DNA from: an uncultured Bacilli bacterium | GTDB taxonomy: Bacteria > Bacillota_I > Bacilli_A > RF39 > UBA660 | Direction of reading: 5' to 3' | Length of the DNA: 64,000 nucleotides | Assembly: GCA_947626035.1 (NCBI GenBank) | Contig: CANQQR010000001.1 | Coordinates: 13,096 to 77,095 of the forward strand | In this document: piece by piece, positions 20,244-30,769 of the stretch | Position numbering within the stretch: the first letter of the stretch is position 1 | Layout: each line of letters opens with the position of its first letter | Notes under the pieces: model-generated | What the model was told of the DNA's origin: nothing | Seen by the model: the letters and a program-made list of their open reading frames with translations, nothing else | Database searches by the model: none | Position numbers and translations under genes: made by a program

Positions 20244-20293
20244 CGCGGGAACGCGGATATATGACGTCACGGGGCTAGTTTACTAGCCCTTCA

Positions 20294-20367
20294 GGGACCT
20301 TGGCCTAATTGGTTAAGGCATCTGGCTCATAACCAGACGATTCTGGGTTCGAGTCCCAGGGGTCCCA
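20294..20367 (+). tRNA. tRNA-Met/Ile2 (anticodon CAT)
   Basis: Manual cloverleaf: acceptor gggacct/gggtccc, D stem gcct/aggc, anticodon stem tctgg/ccaga with loop ctCATaa, T arm ctgggTTCGAGTcccag. Confidence 0.7.
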
Positions 20368-20386
20368 CTCATAGGGAGGTGTTGAT

Positions 20387-20656
20387 ATGGGTAAATCTTA
20401 TAAAAAGAATCCTTATATCACCCAAGAAAAAGAAAATACTAAATTGCTTAACAGAAGAATAAGGTATGCGAAGCTCTATGAGTTTAATACTCCTGGGTCT
20501 TTTAAGCGTTTTTTCTCTAATTGGGGATACAAGAGTCTATGGACGAAAGAAGATGCAATTGCTTCGTATCTCAAACATCCTGAAAGATATGAAAAGAGTT
20601 TTCCCACGCTTGAAGATTGGCTTGAATACTGGCGGAGATGTGCTTATAGAAAATAG
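20387..20656 (+). CDS. Hypothetical basic protein
   Basis: ORF with GGGAGG RBS immediately after a tRNA. Confidence 0.4.
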   Translation: MGKSYKKNPYITQEKENTKLLNRRIRYAKLYEFNTPGSFKRFFSNWGYKSLWTKEDAIASYLKHPERYEKSFPTLEDWLEYWRRCAYRK

Positions 20657-20919
20657 CGTTTGGGCAAAGTTGATTAATTGATTTTAACAAAAATTTTTGA
20701 TATAATATTTATATGATAAGAAAGGAAAGATGAACAAACGGATCGTAGTAATCTTTCTGTAAATTTTTTCAGACCAGGATCCTCGTCCCTAGCGTGATAG
20801 CCTTGAGCTTCGCGCCAAGGCCGCCATGCGGAAAGGCTGTTAGGAAAAATACTTATCATTTGATTTTAAAAAAAATTTTTGTTATAATATATGTATAAGA
20901 AATAAAGAGGAGAAAACGT

Positions 20920-21120
20920 ATGAAGTCTTATTTTGTTGTGACTTTTGGTTGGGAAGGTCTTGCTAAAAGGCATAAGATGGTAGTCAAGTACTCCGATGAT
21001 TTAAAGCTTTGGTTCTGCTATGATGAAACAACCGAGACATACAGAGGTCCCATGTTTCACTCTTATAACGAACTGTATGACTGGATTAGTGACTATACAT
21101 TAATTCAAGAAGCTGGGTAA
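20920..21120 (+). CDS. Hypothetical small protein
   Basis: ORF behind consensus promoter 20860-20900. Confidence 0.35.
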   Translation: MKSYFVVTFGWEGLAKRHKMVVKYSDDLKLWFCYDETTETYRGPMFHSYNELYDWISDYTLIQEAG

Positions 21121-21452
21121 AAATGCTTCATTGATTTTTTAAAAATTTTATGATATAATATATTTATAAGATGAAAGAGTAAATAAAAAACATTTACTCT
21201 CATAGACACCTTTACAGCAAACACATTTTCACCCCTTTCAGAAAATGATGAATAATTAAGGAGGAAGTGGGATTCCCACATCCAGCAGGCGGTAGATTGA
21301 GTTGTTGAGTCACTTTGTATCCGCTGGTTTTACTTACTTACTAACTACTCACGGGTGTCTAGTGACTCCTGACCTGGCTATGGTGTAATGGCTACGAAGA
21401 AAAGTACAATGGGAGTAAGGAGGAATATACCAGTGAATACTCCTTAAAATCT

Positions 21453-21527
21453 TGGGATGTAGTTCAGTTGGTTGAGAATGTCGCTCTGATAAGGCGAAGA
21501 TCTTGGGTTCAAGTCCCGACGTCCCAA
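21453..21527 (+). tRNA. tRNA-Ile (anticodon GAT)
   Basis: Acceptor tgggatg/cgtccca, D stem gttc/gaat, anticodon stem tcgct/ggcga with loop ctGATaa, T arm ttgggTTCAAGTcccga. Confidence 0.65.
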
Positions 21528-21799
21528 CTAAGGAAGATGCGGTCCCTCTCATCCTATGGCAAAAACAGATGCGGGACATATTATATCAAACGGTAGTTTA
21601 ATAGGTTAGAACAACTTTGAGGTTGGTCCTGGTTCGATCCCAGGTCGTGCGATATAAAAACTTTCATTGACTTTTTAAAAAATTTTTGTTATAATATATA
21701 TGTAATCGGAAAAGCAAAGAATCATCTGAAGGTTCGGCGGTGACGTTCTGCCCTAAACGTAAAACCGAGAGTTCGCAGATCTTGATAAAACTGCGGTTT

Positions 21800-21873
21800 G
21801 GCTCCTTCCTCTAACTGGTTTAGGAGGTCTGCCCCTCACGCAGAGAATATGGGTCCGAGTCCCGTAGGAGTCA
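21800..21873 (+). tRNA. tRNA-Glu-like (anticodon CTC; loop cCCTCAc with C at position 33)
   Basis: Acceptor ggctcct/aggagtc, anticodon stem tctgc/gcaga, T arm atgggTCCGAGTcccgt. Confidence 0.5.
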
Positions 21874-22251
21874 CTAAGGCCCGATGGAGTCCTCACGAGT
21901 CCATCCGCACTAAGCAAAGCGTAAAAGTGCTAGAGGATGAGAAGAAAGATTGGAGGGTTCGATTCCCCCGCTGGCAAGTCTGCTGGTCCTGGGTGTGGTA
22001 ATCTGAAGAATCTCATGAGGTTTTGGATAAAGTAAACTTGGTTGCCGCCTTGTTGAAATTGGATGACCTAATCCTCGTTAGGAGCGGCGGCAACCGCTCT
22101 TAAGAGCCACTTCGACTACGTAGGTTAAGTCGCATCTCTCAATAGGAGAGGGATGAAAGTAAGGTGCAAGTCCTTACAGTGGTATTCGTGTCTTTTTAGA
22201 CACTTTGTCATACCTCTCTTAAAAAAATAAAGGCGGTCTTATGACCGTCAC

Positions 22252-22324
22252 GGTCCCTTCTTCTAAGTGGTCAGGAAGCTAGCCCTTCACGCTAGCAATG
22301 TGGGTCCGAACCCCGCAGGGATCA
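22252..22324 (+). tRNA. tRNA-Glu-like (anticodon TTC; loop cCTTCAc with C33)
   Basis: Acceptor ggtccct/agggatc, anticodon stem ctagc/gctag, T arm gtgggTCCGAACccccg; near-paralog of 21800-21873. Confidence 0.5.
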
Positions 22325-29540: not shown

Positions 29541-29611
29541 ATGGGGTGTAATACAACGGTAGTATAGAGGTCTTTGACACCTAAAACCCAGGTCCGACCC
29601 CTGGCACCCCA
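29541..29611 (+). tRNA. tRNA-Gln (anticodon TTG)
   Basis: Acceptor tggggtg/cacccca, D stem atac/gtat, anticodon loop ctTTGac, T arm ccaggTCCGACCcctgg. Confidence 0.6.
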
Positions 29612-29613
29612 GC

Positions 29614-29702
29614 TTAGATGCAGTACAGCAATACTTCTAGGTAAATAAAAATTCTGCAAAAATTTTTTATACGGTTCGAATCCGTAGAAAGAACCTGCAT
29701 CT
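29614..29702 (+). ncRNA. tRNA-like/Y-RNA-like element: 9-bp terminal stem enclosing a T-arm mimic
   Basis: 5' tagatgcag pairs with 3' ctgcatcta; internal tacggTTCGAATccgta; ~8 nt between the T arm and the 3' stem strand, so not a canonical tRNA. Confidence 0.4.
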
Positions 29703-29710
29703 AGTTTATT

Positions 29711-29779
29711 GGTGATTAGTGTAATGGTAGCACGCAACTCTCCAAAAGTTGAATTATGGGTTCGATTCCTGTGTCACCT
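29711..29779 (+). tRNA. tRNA-Trp (anticodon CCA)
   Basis: Anticodon stem caact/agttg (perfect) with loop ctCCAaa, T arm atgggTTCGATTcctgt, 6-bp acceptor ggtgat/gtcacc. Confidence 0.55.
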
Positions 29780-30445
29780 GCTAAACCGCACGGTCGGTCG
29801 CCAGACAAAAATCCTAGGGGTGCGGTATATAAGAACAACAGACCTCCAGACACTTAGGGCTGGCTGAGTGTCTATATCCGAAGTTAGTTTTATGTTAGTT
29901 AAAACGTAGCAGACGTGCAAATAATTGGTGCAAATCCAATACTTCGGGCTTCTCGTTGGTTGGGAATCAACGAGATTGTTGACATTGCAGCGGTTGGATG
30001 TTGCCTGGATAAGGAGCGCGCATCATCTAAAGAGTGAGTCATGACTCTCTGTGCATATAGCGACACAACCAAGAGGTAAGCGAACCAGTCACCTCTCACT
30101 ACAAGAGACTGAGAAGAACGCGGGCTTCGGTTAATCCCCACATGGACCTAGGACAATGTTTGCTGGTTACAAAAACCTAGGCGTATAGGTATAGTTGGAT
30201 CAGACACCATAAGAGCGCGGATTTCGCGGGTCCCGTAGTACAAAATACCCACGAGAGCAAGAATAATGTAGCTGGTCGCAAAAAACTTGCTATCTTGAAT
30301 TGTGGAATCCAAGCGTGTCCTTCTCTGGGCGCAGCGTGACAGCCGCATTTAATAACGATCAAACATGGCGGTCACCATGTGCGATTGTCTGGTTTTCGTG
30401 ACTGTTCAGTTTGTCAGGGTGGGATGGTTATACCTTCCCTCCTAT

Positions 30446-30518
30446 GTAGGTGTCATTCAGTTGGTTAGGATAGAGGTCTGCAACACCTCGGTCGTGGGTT
30501 CAAGTCCCACCGCCTACT
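30446..30518 (+). tRNA. tRNA-Cys (anticodon GCA)
   Basis: Acceptor gtaggtg/cgcctac, anticodon stem gaggt/acctc with loop ctGCAac, T arm gtgggTTCAAGTcccac. Confidence 0.7.
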
Positions 30519-30522
30519 TTAT

Positions 30523-30595
30523 GCCGATGTGGCGCAATTGGTAGCGCAATTGACTTGTAATTAATAGGTTGAGAGTTCGAATCTCTCCGTCGGCT
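30523..30595 (+). tRNA. tRNA-Thr (anticodon TGT)
   Basis: Acceptor gccgatg/cgtcggc, D arm gcgcaattggtagcgc, anticodon loop ctTGTaa, T arm gagagTTCGAATctctc. Confidence 0.7.
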
Positions 30596-30597
30596 CT

Positions 30598-30715
30598 AAA
30601 GCTCATTCAGCAAACATATGCTAAAGTAAACATTAGTAGTCAAATTGGAAAAGACATCAATCTAAGAATTGAAATTTTGGGTTCGAGTCCCAACAAATGT
30701 AAACTAAAGAGCTTT
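30598..30715 (+). ncRNA. tRNA-like/Y-RNA-like element directly upstream of the vWA/Ro60-like gene
   Basis: 5' aaagctc pairs with 3' gagcttt; internal ttgggTTCGAGTcccaa T-arm mimic; 15 nt between the T arm and the 3' strand. Confidence 0.4.
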
Positions 30716-30769
30716 GTAATATTGGTTATGTAAATAACCTAATCTATATGATTAAAAGGAGATAAAAGG

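What the first reader, a model, noticed from the sequence alone, without database searches (positions are those of the whole stretch)
20290..30720. A ~10-kb tRNA array (at least 16 tRNAs) interleaved with morons and long structured non-coding stretches
Sixteen tRNAs were parsed by hand: Met/CAT twice, Ile-GAT, Glu-like twice, Leu-TAA, Leu-TAG, Tyr-like, Ser-GCT, Ser-TGA, Pro, Lys, Gln, Trp, Cys and Thr. More T-arm-bearing fragments that could not be folded are at ~21590-21650, 21940-21990, 22715-22790, 22915-22965, 24825-24900 and 29240-29270. Two stretches have no convincing ORF and no canonical tRNA but many GC-rich helices, for example ggttgccgcc...ggcggcaacc at 22057-22112. They are 22330-23600 and 29780-30440. 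These could hold additional non-canonical tRNAs, processing leaders, or ribozyme-like or other ncRNAs.
Basis: partly seen in the sequence, partly recalled or inferred. Interest (0 to 1): 0.55.

Follow-up and report, generated by a model that had tools for sequence, protein, structure and literature searches.

The report
Phage tRNA array hiding Y-RNA genes
This 10-kb stretch of a ~140-kb phage genome is a real cluster of 17 tRNA genes that also carries six small Y-RNA-like genes of a class no database curates, and it ends at the gene for their likely protein partner, a divergent Ro60 RNA-binding protein.

Summary
The tRNA array is real. ARAGORN finds 16 genes and Rfam's tRNA model finds 18, all on the + strand between 20294 and 30701.

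The main result is different. Six elements in the array share one design: a 7-bp terminal stem (aAAGRYRC…GYRYCTTG), an invariant CAGCAA just inside the 5' strand, and a variable interior. The interior is plain, a lone T-arm, a permuted YrlA-type tRNA-like module, or a whole non-decoding cloverleaf (the "tRNA-???" at 30630-30701). Six are observed against 0.04 expected by chance.

A second conserved RNA ("element X", 29940-30104), also absent from Rfam, follows tRNA-Gln in six phages. About 820 nt (22783-23602) remain unexplained.

Verdict: an ordinary tRNA array that carries a new variant of the Ro60–Y RNA system.

The parts
20294..20368 (+). tRNA-Met (CAT)
   Evidence: ARAGORN; Rfam tRNA 66.6 bits
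21203..21362 (+). Y5: Y-RNA-like element, TAGACAC-cttt-ACAGCAA...GTGTCTAg. It lies 44 nt downstream of promoter 21131-21159.
   Evidence: Strict stem+motif scan. No full-length covariance-model hit, because the interior is long.
21453..21528 (+). tRNA-Ile (GAT)
   Evidence: 64.1 bits
21800..21874 (+). tRNA-Glu (CTC)
   Evidence: 43.7 bits
21875..22251 (+). Unassigned, strongly structured spacer: a series of hairpins including the 22040-22095 GC helix and the orphan T-arm at 21953-21969
   Evidence: z -5.4 and -4.5 with 0 of 100 shuffles as stable. No Rfam family. No homolog in relatives.
22252..22324 (+). tRNA-Glu (TTC)
   Evidence: 44.3 bits
22713..22782 (+). tRNA with CAT anticodon, missed by default ARAGORN
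   Evidence: Rfam tRNA 47.5 bits; ARAGORN at relaxed threshold
22783..23602 (+). Unexplained ORF-less stretch of 820 nt. Its only recognisable feature is a T-loop minihelix at 22926-22960.
   Evidence: No Rfam hit, no blastn hit, no six-frame hit, z near 0
23603..23687 (+). tRNA-Leu (TAA)
23963..24706 (+). HNH homing endonuclease ORF (247 aa)
   Evidence: PHROG HNH families, E down to 2e-26
24735..24824 (+). tRNA-Leu (TAG), followed by an orphan T-arm at 24834-24850
   Evidence: Rfam 46.1 bits; T-arm scan
24987..25060 (+). tRNA-Tyr (GTA)
25150..25222 (+). Marginal tRNA (GAA, Phe-like)
   Evidence: Rfam 31.7 bits against a gathering score of 29; ARAGORN only at relaxed threshold
25341..25429 (+). 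tRNA-Ser (GCT)
25469..27361 (+). 630-aa secreted or anchored beta-helix protein (moron-like)
   Evidence: Pfam Beta_helix below its cut-off; signal-like N-terminus and hydrophobic C-terminus read from the translation
27766..27858 (+). tRNA-Ser (TGA)
27983..28109 (+). Y1: YrlA-type Y-RNA-like gene. It has the terminal stem TAGGCAC/GTGCCTA, ACAGCAA, then a T-arm, a closed acceptor-like hairpin and a D-arm. It lies 78 nt downstream of promoter 27877-27905.
   Evidence: Model R2, built without the window, 75.4 bits, E about 2e-15. Rfam YrlA 34.9 bits, below its gathering score of 69.
28501..28574 (+). Y4: short Y-RNA-like gene (TAAGGCGG-tc-ACAGCAA...CCGCCTTG), 4 nt upstream of tRNA-Pro
   Evidence: R3 31.1 bits, E about 1e-4 over the whole window; R2 20.5 bits
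28579..28658 (+). tRNA-Pro (TGG), followed by a degenerate tRNA-like sequence (CAT) at 28663-28735
   Evidence: the degenerate copy only from relaxed ARAGORN and the tRNA-Sec model at 20.3 bits
29009..29081 (+). tRNA-Lys (TTT)
29467..29537 (+). Y2: short Y-RNA-like gene (AAAGACTC-at-ACAGCAA...GAGTCTTG), 4 nt upstream of tRNA-Gln. It overlaps a spurious 77-aa ORF.
   Evidence: R3 39.0 bits, E about 2e-6; R2 25.3 bits
29542..29613 (+). tRNA-Gln (TTG)
29614..29704 (+). Y6: Y-RNA-like element holding the orphan T-arm at 29670 (TTAGATGC-agt-ACAGCAA...GCATCTAG). It starts 0 nt after tRNA-Gln and ends 5 nt before tRNA-Trp.
   Evidence: Strict scan; local z -3.1
29710..29781 (+). tRNA-Trp (CCA)
29940..30104 (+). 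Element X: a conserved structured RNA, absent from Rfam, made of a four-way junction plus two flanking hairpins, with invariant junction nucleotides
   Evidence: R1 146 bits. Six homologs; 91.8% of cells paired; 22 of 34 pairs compensatory; 0 of 500 shuffles reach this.
30446..30518 (+). tRNA-Cys (GCA)
30523..30596 (+). tRNA-Thr (TGT)
   Evidence: 71.4 bits
30597..30716 (+). Y3: Y-RNA-like element whose interior is a complete tRNA-like cloverleaf (30630-30701, 6-nt anticodon loop): AAAGCTC-at-TCAGCAA...GAGCTTTG. It starts 0 nt after tRNA-Thr and ends 53 nt before the Ro60-like gene.
   Evidence: Strict scan. The homolog in L002 is wrapped the same way. tRNA-embedded members also occur in L178 and L203. 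No full-length covariance-model hit.
30770..32266 (+). Ro60-like protein (498 aa; Pfam DUF2828 + DUF7788/vWA; all five MIDAS residues invariant)
20678..29298 (+). Eight copies of a near-consensus extended -10 promoter (TTGATTTT...TGnTATAAT) at 20678, 20860, 21131, 21667, 22654, 27362, 27877 and 29270
   Evidence: the same motif recurs in relatives
37775..41241 (+). Downstream RNA-repair-type genes: nucleotidyltransferase (37775-38797), metallophosphoesterase (39169-39984), DraRnl-type RNA ligase (40000-41241)
   Evidence: The same linkage is seen in Listeria phage AG20 and L013.

Best explanation
The region is a co-oriented RNA-gene island of a ~140-kb phage. It holds 17 tRNA genes interleaved with six Y-RNA-like genes, one further conserved structured RNA (element X) and a few protein-coding morons. 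It ends at the gene for a divergent Ro60 (TROVE ring + vWA) protein.

Shown. (1) The tRNAs. (2) The six elements share a covarying 7-bp terminal stem and an invariant CAGCAA motif. (3) They belong to a family found on the same strand as, and mostly just upstream of, DUF2828-type Ro60-like genes in dozens of unrelated phage and MAG loci, including cultured Listeria, E. coli and Mycobacterium phages. (4) The protein has the Ro60 fold. (5) Eight near-consensus promoters, and no convincing + strand terminators, lie in the array. (6) Four of the six Y-like RNAs abut tRNAs with spacers of 0-5 nt.

Inferred. The array is transcribed as polycistronic precursors. RNase P and tRNA 3'-end processing release the tRNAs and, by the same cuts, define the ends of the adjacent Y-like RNAs (tRNA punctuation). 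The terminal stem plus the CAGCAA bulge is the docking site for the Ro60-like protein, playing the role of the stem plus CGAA motif of canonical Y RNAs. The variable interiors, which are tRNA-like in three of the six, recruit other factors.

By analogy with Deinococcus and Salmonella RYPER and with Thermus phage phiLo, the RNP most likely retargets a host 3'-5' exoribonuclease such as PNPase, or acts in quality control or repair of tRNA-like RNAs, together with the RNA ligase, phosphoesterase and nucleotidyltransferase genes downstream. The tRNAs themselves supply decoding capacity for the phage's A/T-ending codons and may replace host tRNAs lost to defence nucleases.
For: tRNAs.

Family signature in the window: six stem+motif elements in the 10.6-kb array against 0.04 expected (maximum 2 in 300 dinucleotide shuffles), none elsewhere on the + strand.

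Independent recognition by models that exclude the window: Y1 75.4 bits with R2; Y2 39.0 and Y4 31.1 bits with R3. Those two are the only R3 hits with E below 0.01 in 64 kb on both strands.

Covariation: R2 seed 97.7% paired, 18 of 22 pairs compensatory. R3 seed stem 99.5% paired, 7 of 7 pairs compensatory, CAGCA invariant in 28 copies.

Association with the gene: 177 of 177 R2 hits and 123 of 123 R3 hits lie on the gene's strand in about 1 Mb searched on both strands. In 80 genome loci, 93 hits are upstream, 5 downstream and 0 inside; 35 lie within 100 nt; 53 of 80 loci are positive. The strict scan gives 193 on the + strand against 10 on the - strand.

Cultured phages: three tandem elements just upstream of the gene in Listeria phage AG20, four between tRNAs in E. 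coli phage wV8, three after the gene in mycobacteriophage LeBron.

Literature. YrlA lies within 4 kb of Ro60 on the same strand in 254 bacteria and 22 phages (PMC4201824). phiLo Ro60 binds two upstream Y-like RNAs and host PNPase (PMC12135203). In Listeria phage CKA15 an Rsr-like protein lies within 2 kb downstream of three very highly transcribed non-coding regions (PMC12282133), and the AG20 trio is 100% identical to CKA15 25,276-25,576, inside that interval. Bas63 gp130, Ro60-like and next to the tRNAs, counters the Ppl defence (PMC11482910).

Spacing to tRNAs. Promoters and terminators. RNA-repair genes.
Against: No expression, processing or binding data exist for this phage, and binding of these RNAs to the DUF2828-type protein has never been tested.

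Y3, Y5 and Y6 rest on the stem+motif signature and on homologs, not on a full-length covariance-model score.

Y1 reaches only 34.9 bits on Rfam YrlA (gathering score 69). The canonical GNCGAA/CGAA motif is absent.

The seeds for R2 were selected partly for T-arm, hairpin and D-arm pairing, so pairing percentages in those helices are inflated. Some R3 seeds were chosen among hits upstream of the gene.

I could not establish from the paper that the AG20/CKA15 trio is one of the three highly transcribed regions. The one region given by coordinates (26,236-26,727) is a different, non-homologous stretch.

About 820 nt (22783-23602), 21875-22251 and parts of 28736-29269 and 30105-30445 are not explained by this model.
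Confidence: 0.8

Rival explanations
1. The stem+CAGCAA elements are cis-acting signals rather than stand-alone partner RNAs. They could be RNase III, E or Y processing sites or stabilising hairpins for tRNA precursor maturation, or a 5'-UTR operator through which the Ro60-like protein, or another factor, autoregulates its own mRNA.
For: In many genome loci the elements lie within 100 nt upstream of the gene, which is where a leader or operator would sit. In the window they abut tRNAs, which is where processing signals would sit. No terminators separate them from neighbours.
Against: In the window and in wV8 they are scattered up to 9.5 kb from the gene, between tRNAs, and two of them (Y5, Y1) sit 44-78 nt downstream of their own promoters. 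They occur in tandem sets of two to seven per locus. Their interiors carry elaborate conserved modules such as the permuted tRNA-like domain, which a cleavage site does not need. In LeBron they lie downstream of the gene. The architecture of a 5'/3' stem, a motif in a bulge and a variable loop is that of Y RNAs (PMC4201824, PMC12135203).
Confidence: 0.12
2. The long ORF-less stretches (22783-23602, and 29782-30445 outside element X) encode discrete, abundant long non-coding RNAs of a new kind.
For: There is precedent. In Listeria phage CKA15 a 492-nt stretch with no RBS and no homologs, inside the tRNA region, gives up to about 67% of phage transcripts (PMC12282133; mapped to AG20 L216 5489-5980). 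The 820-nt stretch lies downstream of a strong promoter and a tRNA with no terminator. z-scores cannot exclude structure, because element X also has z near 0.
Against: There is no homolog in any relative, in the phage database or in Rfam. There is no thermodynamic signal. There is no similarity to the CKA15 stretch. Array content turns over quickly between relatives (8-26 tRNAs), and orphan T-arms and a degenerate tRNA suggest that part of this DNA is decayed gene remnants.
Confidence: 0.25
3. The elements are miniature inverted-repeat mobile elements or REP-like repeats, whose terminal inverted repeats merely look like RNA stems.
For: They have short terminal inverted repeats and variable interiors, occur in many copies per genome, and lie near HNH endonuclease genes.
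Against: The stem sequences differ between copies yet stay complementary: 7 of 7 pairs have compensatory changes and 99.5% of cells are paired. That pattern fits selection on RNA pairing, not on a protein-recognised terminus. Orientation is strictly tied to one gene's strand (193 against 10). The conserved motif lies on one strand only. No target-site duplications were seen.
Confidence: 0.03
4. It is only a tRNA array. Y1 and the other T-arm-bearing pieces are decaying tRNA pseudogenes, and the shared motif is inherited spacer sequence.
For: Orphan T-arms at 21628, 21953, 22935 and 24834 and the degenerate tRNA at 28663-28735 do look like remnants. tRNA content varies widely among relatives.
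Against: The permuted order (T-arm, closed hairpin, D-arm) is conserved with covariation across distantly related contigs whose Ro60-like proteins are only 37-60% identical to the window's. The motif and stem recur in Listeria, E. coli and Mycobacterium phages that share no DNA similarity with the window.
Confidence: 0.03

Closest known systems
Ro60/Rsr-Y RNA ribonucleoproteins of bacteria (YrlA and YrlB of Salmonella, Yrn1 of Deinococcus; the RYPER complex with PNPase; the rsr-yrlBA-rtcBA operon)
   Same: A ring-shaped TROVE+vWA protein is encoded next to, and on the same strand as, several small RNAs. Each RNA has a 5'/3' terminal stem, a conserved motif in an adjacent bulge and a variable interior. 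One RNA (Y1) has the circularly permuted tRNA-like module that defines YrlA. RNA-ligase and repair genes are linked.
   Different: The protein is the DUF2828 branch and gives no Pfam TROVE hit even at E<=10. The RNA motif is CAGCAA rather than GNCGAA/CGAA. Y1 is below the Rfam YrlA threshold. Six copies are dispersed through a tRNA array instead of one or two beside the gene. Some members carry a whole non-permuted cloverleaf, and others carry no tRNA-like part at all.
Phage Ro60 systems: mycobacteriophage Ro plus YrlA (Chen et al. 2014) and Thermus phage phiLo phiRo60 with Yrl1 and Yrl2 (PMC12135203)
   Different: Those systems use canonical TROVE proteins and CGAA-motif RNAs and are not embedded in tRNA arrays. 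Binding has been shown there and not here.
Rsr-like or Ro60-like genes next to tRNA clusters in Listeria phage CKA15/P100-like phages (PMC12282133) and E. coli phage Bas63/Felixounavirus gp130 (PMC11482910)
   Same: It is the same protein family (tblastn) and the same synteny of tRNA array, Ro-like gene and RNA-repair genes. The authors suspected Y RNAs among or near the tRNAs. My models find members of the same RNA family there.
   Different: Those papers did not define the RNAs. Here a sequence and structure consensus and genome-wide statistics are given. The functional data (virion packaging; anti-Ppl activity) come from those phages, not from this one.
Phage tRNA gene clusters (T4, Herelleviridae, Felix O1-like phages, cluster C mycobacteriophages)
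   Same: A co-oriented cluster of many tRNAs is interleaved with homing endonucleases and small ORFs. Content varies between relatives. Some relatives also carry tmRNA.
   Different: None in principle. The window lacks the tmRNA that relatives L002 and L006 have, and it covers only about 14 amino acids.
tRNA punctuation (mitochondrial transcripts; MALAT1-mascRNA)
   Same: Non-tRNA RNAs directly abut tRNAs, so tRNA-processing enzymes would define their ends (gaps of 0-5 nt).
   Different: This is inferred from spacing only. No processing data exist.

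Membership tests
Phage tRNA gene array | Many tRNA genes with canonical cloverleaves clustered on one strand | tested here: met
   16 by ARAGORN and 18 by Rfam RF00005 at or above 29 bits, all on the + strand within 10.4 kb
Rfam YrlA (RF02553), tested on Y1 (27983-28109) | Score at or above the curated gathering threshold of 69 bits | tested here: not met
   34.9 bits, E 1.2e-4 over 11 kb and 2.6e-6 over 236 nt
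Rfam YrlA (RF02553), tested on Y1 | tRNA-like module in permuted order: T-arm, closed acceptor-like hairpin, D-arm | tested here: met
   These positions align to the YrlA consensus with high posterior probability. The same module with covariation is found in 10 other loci.
Rfam YrlA (RF02553), tested on Y1 | Encoded within 4 kb of a Ro60 ortholog on the same strand (criterion of Chen et al. 2014, PMC4201824) | tested here: met
Rfam YrlA (RF02553), tested on Y1 | GNCGAAN0-1G (CGAA) motif in the 5' strand near the Ro60-binding stem | tested here: not met
   The sequence at that position is GUACAGCAAAU. CAGCA is invariant in 28 family members.
Y RNA (functional class) | Bound by the Ro60 protein in vivo or in vitro | not testable with these tools
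   Only genomic association is available: 93 of 98 hits upstream of the gene and all on its strand
Y RNA (functional class) | A discrete small RNA of about 70-130 nt whose 5' and 3' ends pair in a long stem next to a large internal loop | tested here: inconclusive
   The predicted architecture fits. RNA ends and stability were not measured. CKA15 transcriptomics covers the homologous interval, but the paper text does not resolve it.
Ro60 / TROVE protein family | Match to Pfam TROVE (PF05731) | tested here: not met
   No TROVE hit even at E<=10; the hits are DUF2828 (104.6 bits) and DUF7788 (103.5 bits). No sequence-level PDB hit.
Ro60 / TROVE protein family | Alpha-helical HEAT-like repeat ring followed by a vWA domain with a MIDAS site | tested here: met
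tmRNA (one-piece or permuted) | tRNA-like domain plus tag reading frame; match to RF00023 or RF04321 or to the relatives' tmRNAs | tested here: not met
   ARAGORN finds none. Rfam gives only a 13-nt T-loop match of 10.9 bits. An nhmmer profile of the L002 and L006 tmRNAs finds nothing in the window. Relaxed ARAGORN 'permuted' calls give implausible tags.
Large ornate phage-associated RNAs (GOLLD, ROOL), group I/II introns, RNase P RNA | Match to the Rfam covariance model | tested here: not met
   No such hit at E<=10 with relaxed filters over 21529-23602 and 28659-30445, nor at E<=5 over 20000-31000
Intron-containing or permuted tRNA | Two tRNA halves that form a cloverleaf across an insert | tested here: not met
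   The single ARAGORN -i call (22376-22781, 314-nt 'intron') reuses the 3' half of the complete tRNA at 22713-22782 and spans a promoter

The most novel reading that the evidence does not exclude
The CAGCAA-type elements are a distinct class of Ro60-partner RNAs that no database curates. The class would serve the large DUF2828 branch of Ro60 homologs, which occurs in at least 705 sequenced phages including P100/A511-like Listeria phages, Felix O1-like coliphages and cluster L mycobacteriophages, and in many gut and rumen MAG contigs. On this reading the RNAs are made by tRNA-punctuated processing of tRNA-array transcripts. Their modular interiors (none, a T-arm, a permuted tRNA-like module, or a whole non-decoding tRNA) direct a possibly virion-delivered Ro60-like RNP to different host RNA enzymes as an anti-defence or RNA-remodelling device. 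In addition, element X would be a new tRNA-Gln-linked functional RNA with an invariant four-way-junction core.
Probability: 0.45. Interest if true: 0.78.

Novelty: new variant of a known kind. Interest (0 to 1): 0.62.

Why it matters
Ro60-like genes next to phage tRNA clusters have recently drawn attention. Bas63 gp130 counters the Ppl defence, and Listeria phage CKA15 encodes an Rsr-like protein that is found in virions and lies near very abundant non-coding transcripts. In both cases the authors could only guess that "some tRNAs may be Y RNAs".

The consensus derived here (a terminal stem, CAGCAA and a modular interior), together with two working covariance models, names concrete candidate partner RNAs in those model phages and in hundreds of others. 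That makes the question directly testable by EMSA or CLIP, by motif mutants, and by re-analysis of existing RNA-seq data.

It also shows that tRNA predictors both over-call and under-call in such arrays. A "tRNA" with a 6-nt anticodon loop is the domain of a Y-like RNA, and a real tRNA was missed at default settings. Phage tRNA counts used in codon-usage or anti-defence arguments may therefore be contaminated.

Element X adds a conserved structured RNA of unknown function with strong covariation from only six sequences.

Tried and rejected
tmRNA. Relatives L002 and L006 carry tmRNAs in their arrays, but the window has none. A permuted-tmRNA reading of 21940-22330 gave an implausible tag (…DYVG) and no acceptor pairing.

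Known large RNAs and introns. GOLLD, ROOL, group I/II introns and RNase P give no Rfam hits.

Intron-bearing tRNA-Ile (22376-22781). This is an artefact that reuses a complete tRNA.

Decayed protein genes. Six-frame tblastn of every gap against all relatives found only promoter-derived low-complexity matches and element X.

DNA homology of the long stretches. There is none in the phage database or in the closest metagenomic relatives. An exact 32-mer was absent from reference genomes.

Collection scans for element X. The viral-contig scan returned only the contigs already held as L002 and L006. The 16-nt pattern scan of metagenomes gave about 120 mostly chance loci, with one truly new homolog (L099) and one (L114) that scores identically to L006.

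Thermodynamic z-scores. They single out only 21980-22250 and miss element X, which is proven by covariation, so I did not use them to call the stretches unstructured.

First AF2 model. It came from 16 near-identical sequences and was poor (pLDDT 59.5); it was redone with 75 diverse sequences.

Source record and literature. The look-up of encoding contigs could not locate the window's own record. The Sim et al. 2020 review was not available.

CKA15 expression. I tried to tie the CKA15 highly transcribed region at 26,236-26,727 to the family. It is a different, non-homologous stretch. Whether the Y-like trio at 25,276-25,576 is one of the other two regions could not be settled from the text.

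Seventh match. A stem+GCAGCAA match at 47629-47707 lies inside an ORF, has an AT-only stem and scores 9.4 bits, so I treat it as chance.

Full report
1. THE OBSERVATION

ARAGORN finds 16 tRNA genes on the + strand between 20294 and 30701. Rfam's tRNA model finds 17 at its gathering score over the whole window. It finds an eighteenth (24735-24823) when less sequence is searched. Two of these were missed by default ARAGORN: 22713-22782 (47.5 bits, CAT anticodon) and the marginal 25150-25222 (31.7 bits).

ARAGORN's last call, 30630-30701, has a 6-nt anticodon loop and gets no amino-acid assignment. Relaxed and intron modes add only low-quality or artefactual calls.

The interleaved ORFs are real. 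They are an HNH endonuclease (23963-24706), a 630-aa beta-helix surface protein (25469-27361) and four small ORFs with good ribosome-binding sites.

Seven canonical T-arm hairpins lie outside called tRNAs: 21628, 21953, 22935, 24834, 28032, 28711 and 29670.

Their z-scores are -1.5 and -1.7, within the range of the coding controls. One of them contains a whole tRNA and a promoter. Only 21875-22251 is clearly over-stable (z -5.4 and -4.5).

2. CONTEXT

The window has about 40% G+C and no near-identical phage in GenBank. The protein encoded directly downstream of the array (30770-32266) matches exactly one database entry, from a 139,594-bp NCBI contig. Its nearest relatives are only about 73% identical.

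In relatives from IMG/VR and ENA the homolog of this gene again sits directly downstream of a co-oriented tRNA array holding 6 to 26 tRNAs. Two relatives also carry a tmRNA in the array. The window does not.

A near-consensus extended -10 promoter (TTGATTTT…TGnTATAAT) occurs eight times in the array and throughout the phage family. There are no convincing + strand terminators.

3. THE PROTEIN IS A RO60 HOMOLOG

Pfam calls the protein DUF2828 + DUF7788 (vWA). PHROGs calls it "RNA-binding protein". There is no TROVE hit even at E<=10 and no sequence-level PDB hit.

All five MIDAS residues are invariant in the alignment.

tblastn finds this family in 705 phage records. They include P100/A511-like Listeria phages, Felixounaviruses, and cluster L mycobacteriophages, where annotators already write "Ro-like RNA binding protein". 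The protein's identity is therefore not new.

4. A Y-RNA-LIKE FAMILY IN THE ARRAY

The first lead was a sub-threshold Rfam YrlA hit at 28008-28102 (34.9 bits). There the T-arm, a closed acceptor-like hairpin and the D-arm align well to the YrlA consensus. This is the circular permutation of tRNA that defines YrlA (PMC4201824).

A simple architecture scan found the same permuted module on the gene's strand in many unrelated loci obtained by scanning reference genomes with the protein alignment. Trimming those examples to their enclosing stems exposed a feature that had not been selected for. The 5' strand always reads aAAGRYRC-N2-4-ACAGCAA, and it pairs with GYRYCTTG at the 3' end.

Model R2 was built from ten such sequences with the window excluded. 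Its seed is 97.7% paired, and 18 of 22 pairs show compensatory changes. R2 recovers the window element 27983-28109 at 75.4 bits.

R2 also revealed a much larger class of short members (50-90 nt) that keep the stem and motif but lack the tRNA-like module. These often occur as tandem pairs within 200 nt upstream of the gene.

Model R3 was built from 28 short members in 23 loci, again excluding the window. In its seed, CAGCA is invariant, the stem is 99.5% paired and 7 of 7 pairs are compensatory. Across the whole 64-kb window on both strands, R3 finds exactly two significant hits: 29467-29537 (39.0 bits) and 28501-28574 (31.1 bits).

A strict signature scan required an exact [A/T]CAGCAA, a 7-bp stem and a 3' G. 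It finds six elements in the array against 0.04 expected (maximum 2 in 300 dinucleotide shuffles). It finds none elsewhere on the + strand. The six elements are:

- Y5, 21203-21362.
- Y1, 27983-28109.
- Y4, 28501-28574.
- Y2, 29467-29537.
- Y6, 29614-29704. It contains the orphan T-arm at 29670.
- Y3, 30597-30716. It wraps the "tRNA-???" cloverleaf.

The L002 homolog of that cloverleaf is wrapped in the same way (TTAGACGC-gt-GCAGCAA…GCGTCTAG). tRNA-embedded members also occur in L178 and L203.

5. ASSOCIATION WITH THE GENE

Over about 1 Mb searched on both strands, all 177 R2 hits (E<=0.1) and all 123 R3 hits (E<=0.01) lie on the strand of the Ro60-like gene.

In the 80 genome loci, 93 R3 hits lie upstream of the gene, 5 downstream and none inside it. 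Of the upstream hits, 35 lie within 100 nt and 65 within 500 nt. Similar amounts of sequence were available on each side. 53 of the 80 loci carry at least one hit.

The strict scan gives 193 elements on the gene strand against 10 on the other strand.

The models also hit in cultured phages:

- Listeria phage AG20: three tandem elements in the roughly 340 nt upstream of the gene.
- E. coli phage wV8: four elements between tRNAs, just downstream of the gene.
- Mycobacteriophage LeBron: three elements just downstream of the gene.

Rfam 15 has no family that matches these RNAs.

6. MECHANISM

What is shown: the elements, their covariation, their linkage to a Ro60-fold protein, the promoters, and the spacing to tRNAs. 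Y4, Y2, Y6 and Y3 abut tRNAs with gaps of 0-5 nt.

What is inferred:

- The array is transcribed as long precursors.
- RNase P and tRNA 3'-end processing cut out the tRNAs and thereby set the ends of the adjacent Y-like RNAs.
- The stem plus the CAGCAA bulge docks the Ro60-like protein, as the stem plus CGAA motif does in canonical Y RNAs (PMC4201824, PMC12135203).
- The variable interiors recruit other factors.

By analogy with RYPER and with phiLo Ro60–Yrl–PNPase (PMC12135203), the RNP probably redirects a host exoribonuclease or acts in RNA quality control or repair. The conserved linkage to RNA ligase, phosphoesterase and nucleotidyltransferase genes fits this (window 37775-41241; AG20).

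Published hints on function come from other phages. Bas63 gp130 counters the Ppl defence (PMC11482910). CKA15_055 is found in virions and lies within 2 kb downstream of three very highly transcribed non-coding regions (PMC12282133). The AG20 trio is 100% identical to CKA15 25,276-25,576, which is inside that interval. I could not confirm from the text that it is one of the three regions.

The tRNAs cover the preferred A/T-ending codons for about 14 amino acids.

7. ELEMENT X

A block at 29940-30104 is conserved in L002, L006, L099, L136 and L150. In four of those five relatives it begins at the 3' end of a tRNA-Gln. In L099 it lies about 245 nt downstream of one. In the window it lies after tRNA-Gln, Y6 and tRNA-Trp.

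It folds as a four-way junction with two flanking hairpins. On four sequences, 94.7% of cells are paired against 38-48% when partners are slid, and 17 of 34 pairs are compensatory. On six sequences, 91.8% are paired and 22 of 34 pairs are compensatory, with 0 of 500 shuffles reaching this (that alignment was fitted to the model).

The junction nucleotides UAAAGAGUG, CUuUG, AUAU and ACAC are invariant, while helix P3 changes size. Rfam has no match. Its function is unknown.

8. WHAT REMAINS UNEXPLAINED

These parts are unassigned:

- 22783-23602 (820 nt; only a T-loop minihelix at 22926-22960 is recognisable).
- The highly structured 21875-22251.
- The orphan T-arms at 21628, 21953 and 24834.
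- The degenerate tRNA at 28663-28735.
- Parts of 28736-29269 and 30105-30445.

They have no ORF conservation, no Rfam family and no homolog. They may be decayed gene remnants in a fast-evolving array. They may instead be lineage-specific RNAs. The 492-nt, extremely abundant, ORF-less transcript in CKA15's tRNA region shows that such RNAs exist (PMC12282133), but it is not homologous to anything in the window.

9. VERDICT

The tRNA array is an ordinary phage feature and is confirmed. The added value is that the array is also a Y-RNA-like gene array belonging to a Ro60-type RNP. That kind of system is known in bacteria and a few phages, but here it appears in a variant form:

- The protein belongs to the DUF2828 branch.
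- The RNA motif is CAGCAA, not CGAA.
- The RNA interiors are modular.
- The copies are dispersed between tRNAs.

This variant is widespread, absent from Rfam, and not described in the searchable literature.

Confidence is about 0.9 that the family is real and linked to the gene. It is about 0.7 that the RNAs bind the protein. It is about 0.35 for the specific exoribonuclease-hijack or repair role.

Noticed in passing
window 32311-33645 (-) and 33979-34740 (-): A radical SAM enzyme matches NCBIfam TIGR04115 'CXXX-repeat peptide maturase' at 432 bits. It lies near a 253-aa ORF packed with C-x-x-x repeats ([18 protein letters not shown]…), which is probably its substrate. This would be a RiPP-like maturase and substrate pair in a phage, on the strand opposite to the array.
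   Followed up: partly
window 18376-18990, 19006-19617, 19626-20243 (+): Three tandem paralogous ORFs of about 204 aa sit directly upstream of the array. They share an N-terminal motif (MAYxxLKKxGxxGNIxHFLAD). The third copy, the only one scanned, has no Pfam or PHROG match.
   Followed up: no
L013 8270-10807: One of the closest relatives (Ro60-like protein 73% identical) encodes an 845-aa protein with Major Vault Protein shoulder (PF11978) and faint Vault_3 Pfam hits, 3 kb downstream of its Ro60-like gene. A vault-like and a TROVE-like protein therefore occur together in one phage.
   Followed up: no
L006 2518-2610; L008 5769-5849; L009 6802-6882; L010 12625-12699; L150 2638-2713: Several relatives carry a tRNA with a CTA anticodon (an amber suppressor, labelled tRNA-Pyl by ARAGORN) in their arrays. 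This hints at TAG recoding in those phages. The window has none.
   Followed up: no
L002 8342-8687 and L006 6789-7145: The phage-encoded tmRNAs in the relatives' tRNA arrays have ordinary tags (…KVAFAA*, …PVAMAA*) but an unusual T-loop (GGGGCAGAGCC). ARAGORN misses them; Rfam finds them at 57-71 bits.
   Followed up: partly
window 21172-21200 and 27926-27952: A conserved hairpin (AGAGTAAAT…ATTTACTCT) follows promoters P21131 and P27877 and precedes Y5 and Y1. It may be a 5' stabilising or processing element.
   Followed up: no
window 22233-22250 and 27748-27764: A nearly identical hairpin (GGCGGTCTTATGACCGTC / GCGGTCTTATGACCGC) lies directly upstream of tRNA-Glu(TTC) and tRNA-Ser(TGA).
   Followed up: no
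L216 5489-5980 (Listeria phage AG20; equals CKA15 26,236-26,727): This stretch reportedly gives up to about 67% of CKA15 phage transcripts. It is an ORF-less region of about 490 nt inside the tRNA array, downstream of a promoter-like sequence at about L216 5424. It has no Y-type signature, no hit with models R2 or R3, and no similarity to the window.
   Followed up: partly
window 43605-44879 (+): A PIN-PhoH fusion protein is encoded downstream of the RNA ligase, phosphoesterase and nucleotidyltransferase genes. It adds to the RNA-metabolism character of this genome segment.
   Followed up: no
window 22160-22178, 29219-29240, 29920-29945: Three hairpins share the loop TGCAART (NNGG-TGCAART-CCNN), a T-loop-like motif distinct from the tRNA T-arm. 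Their significance is unknown.
   Followed up: no
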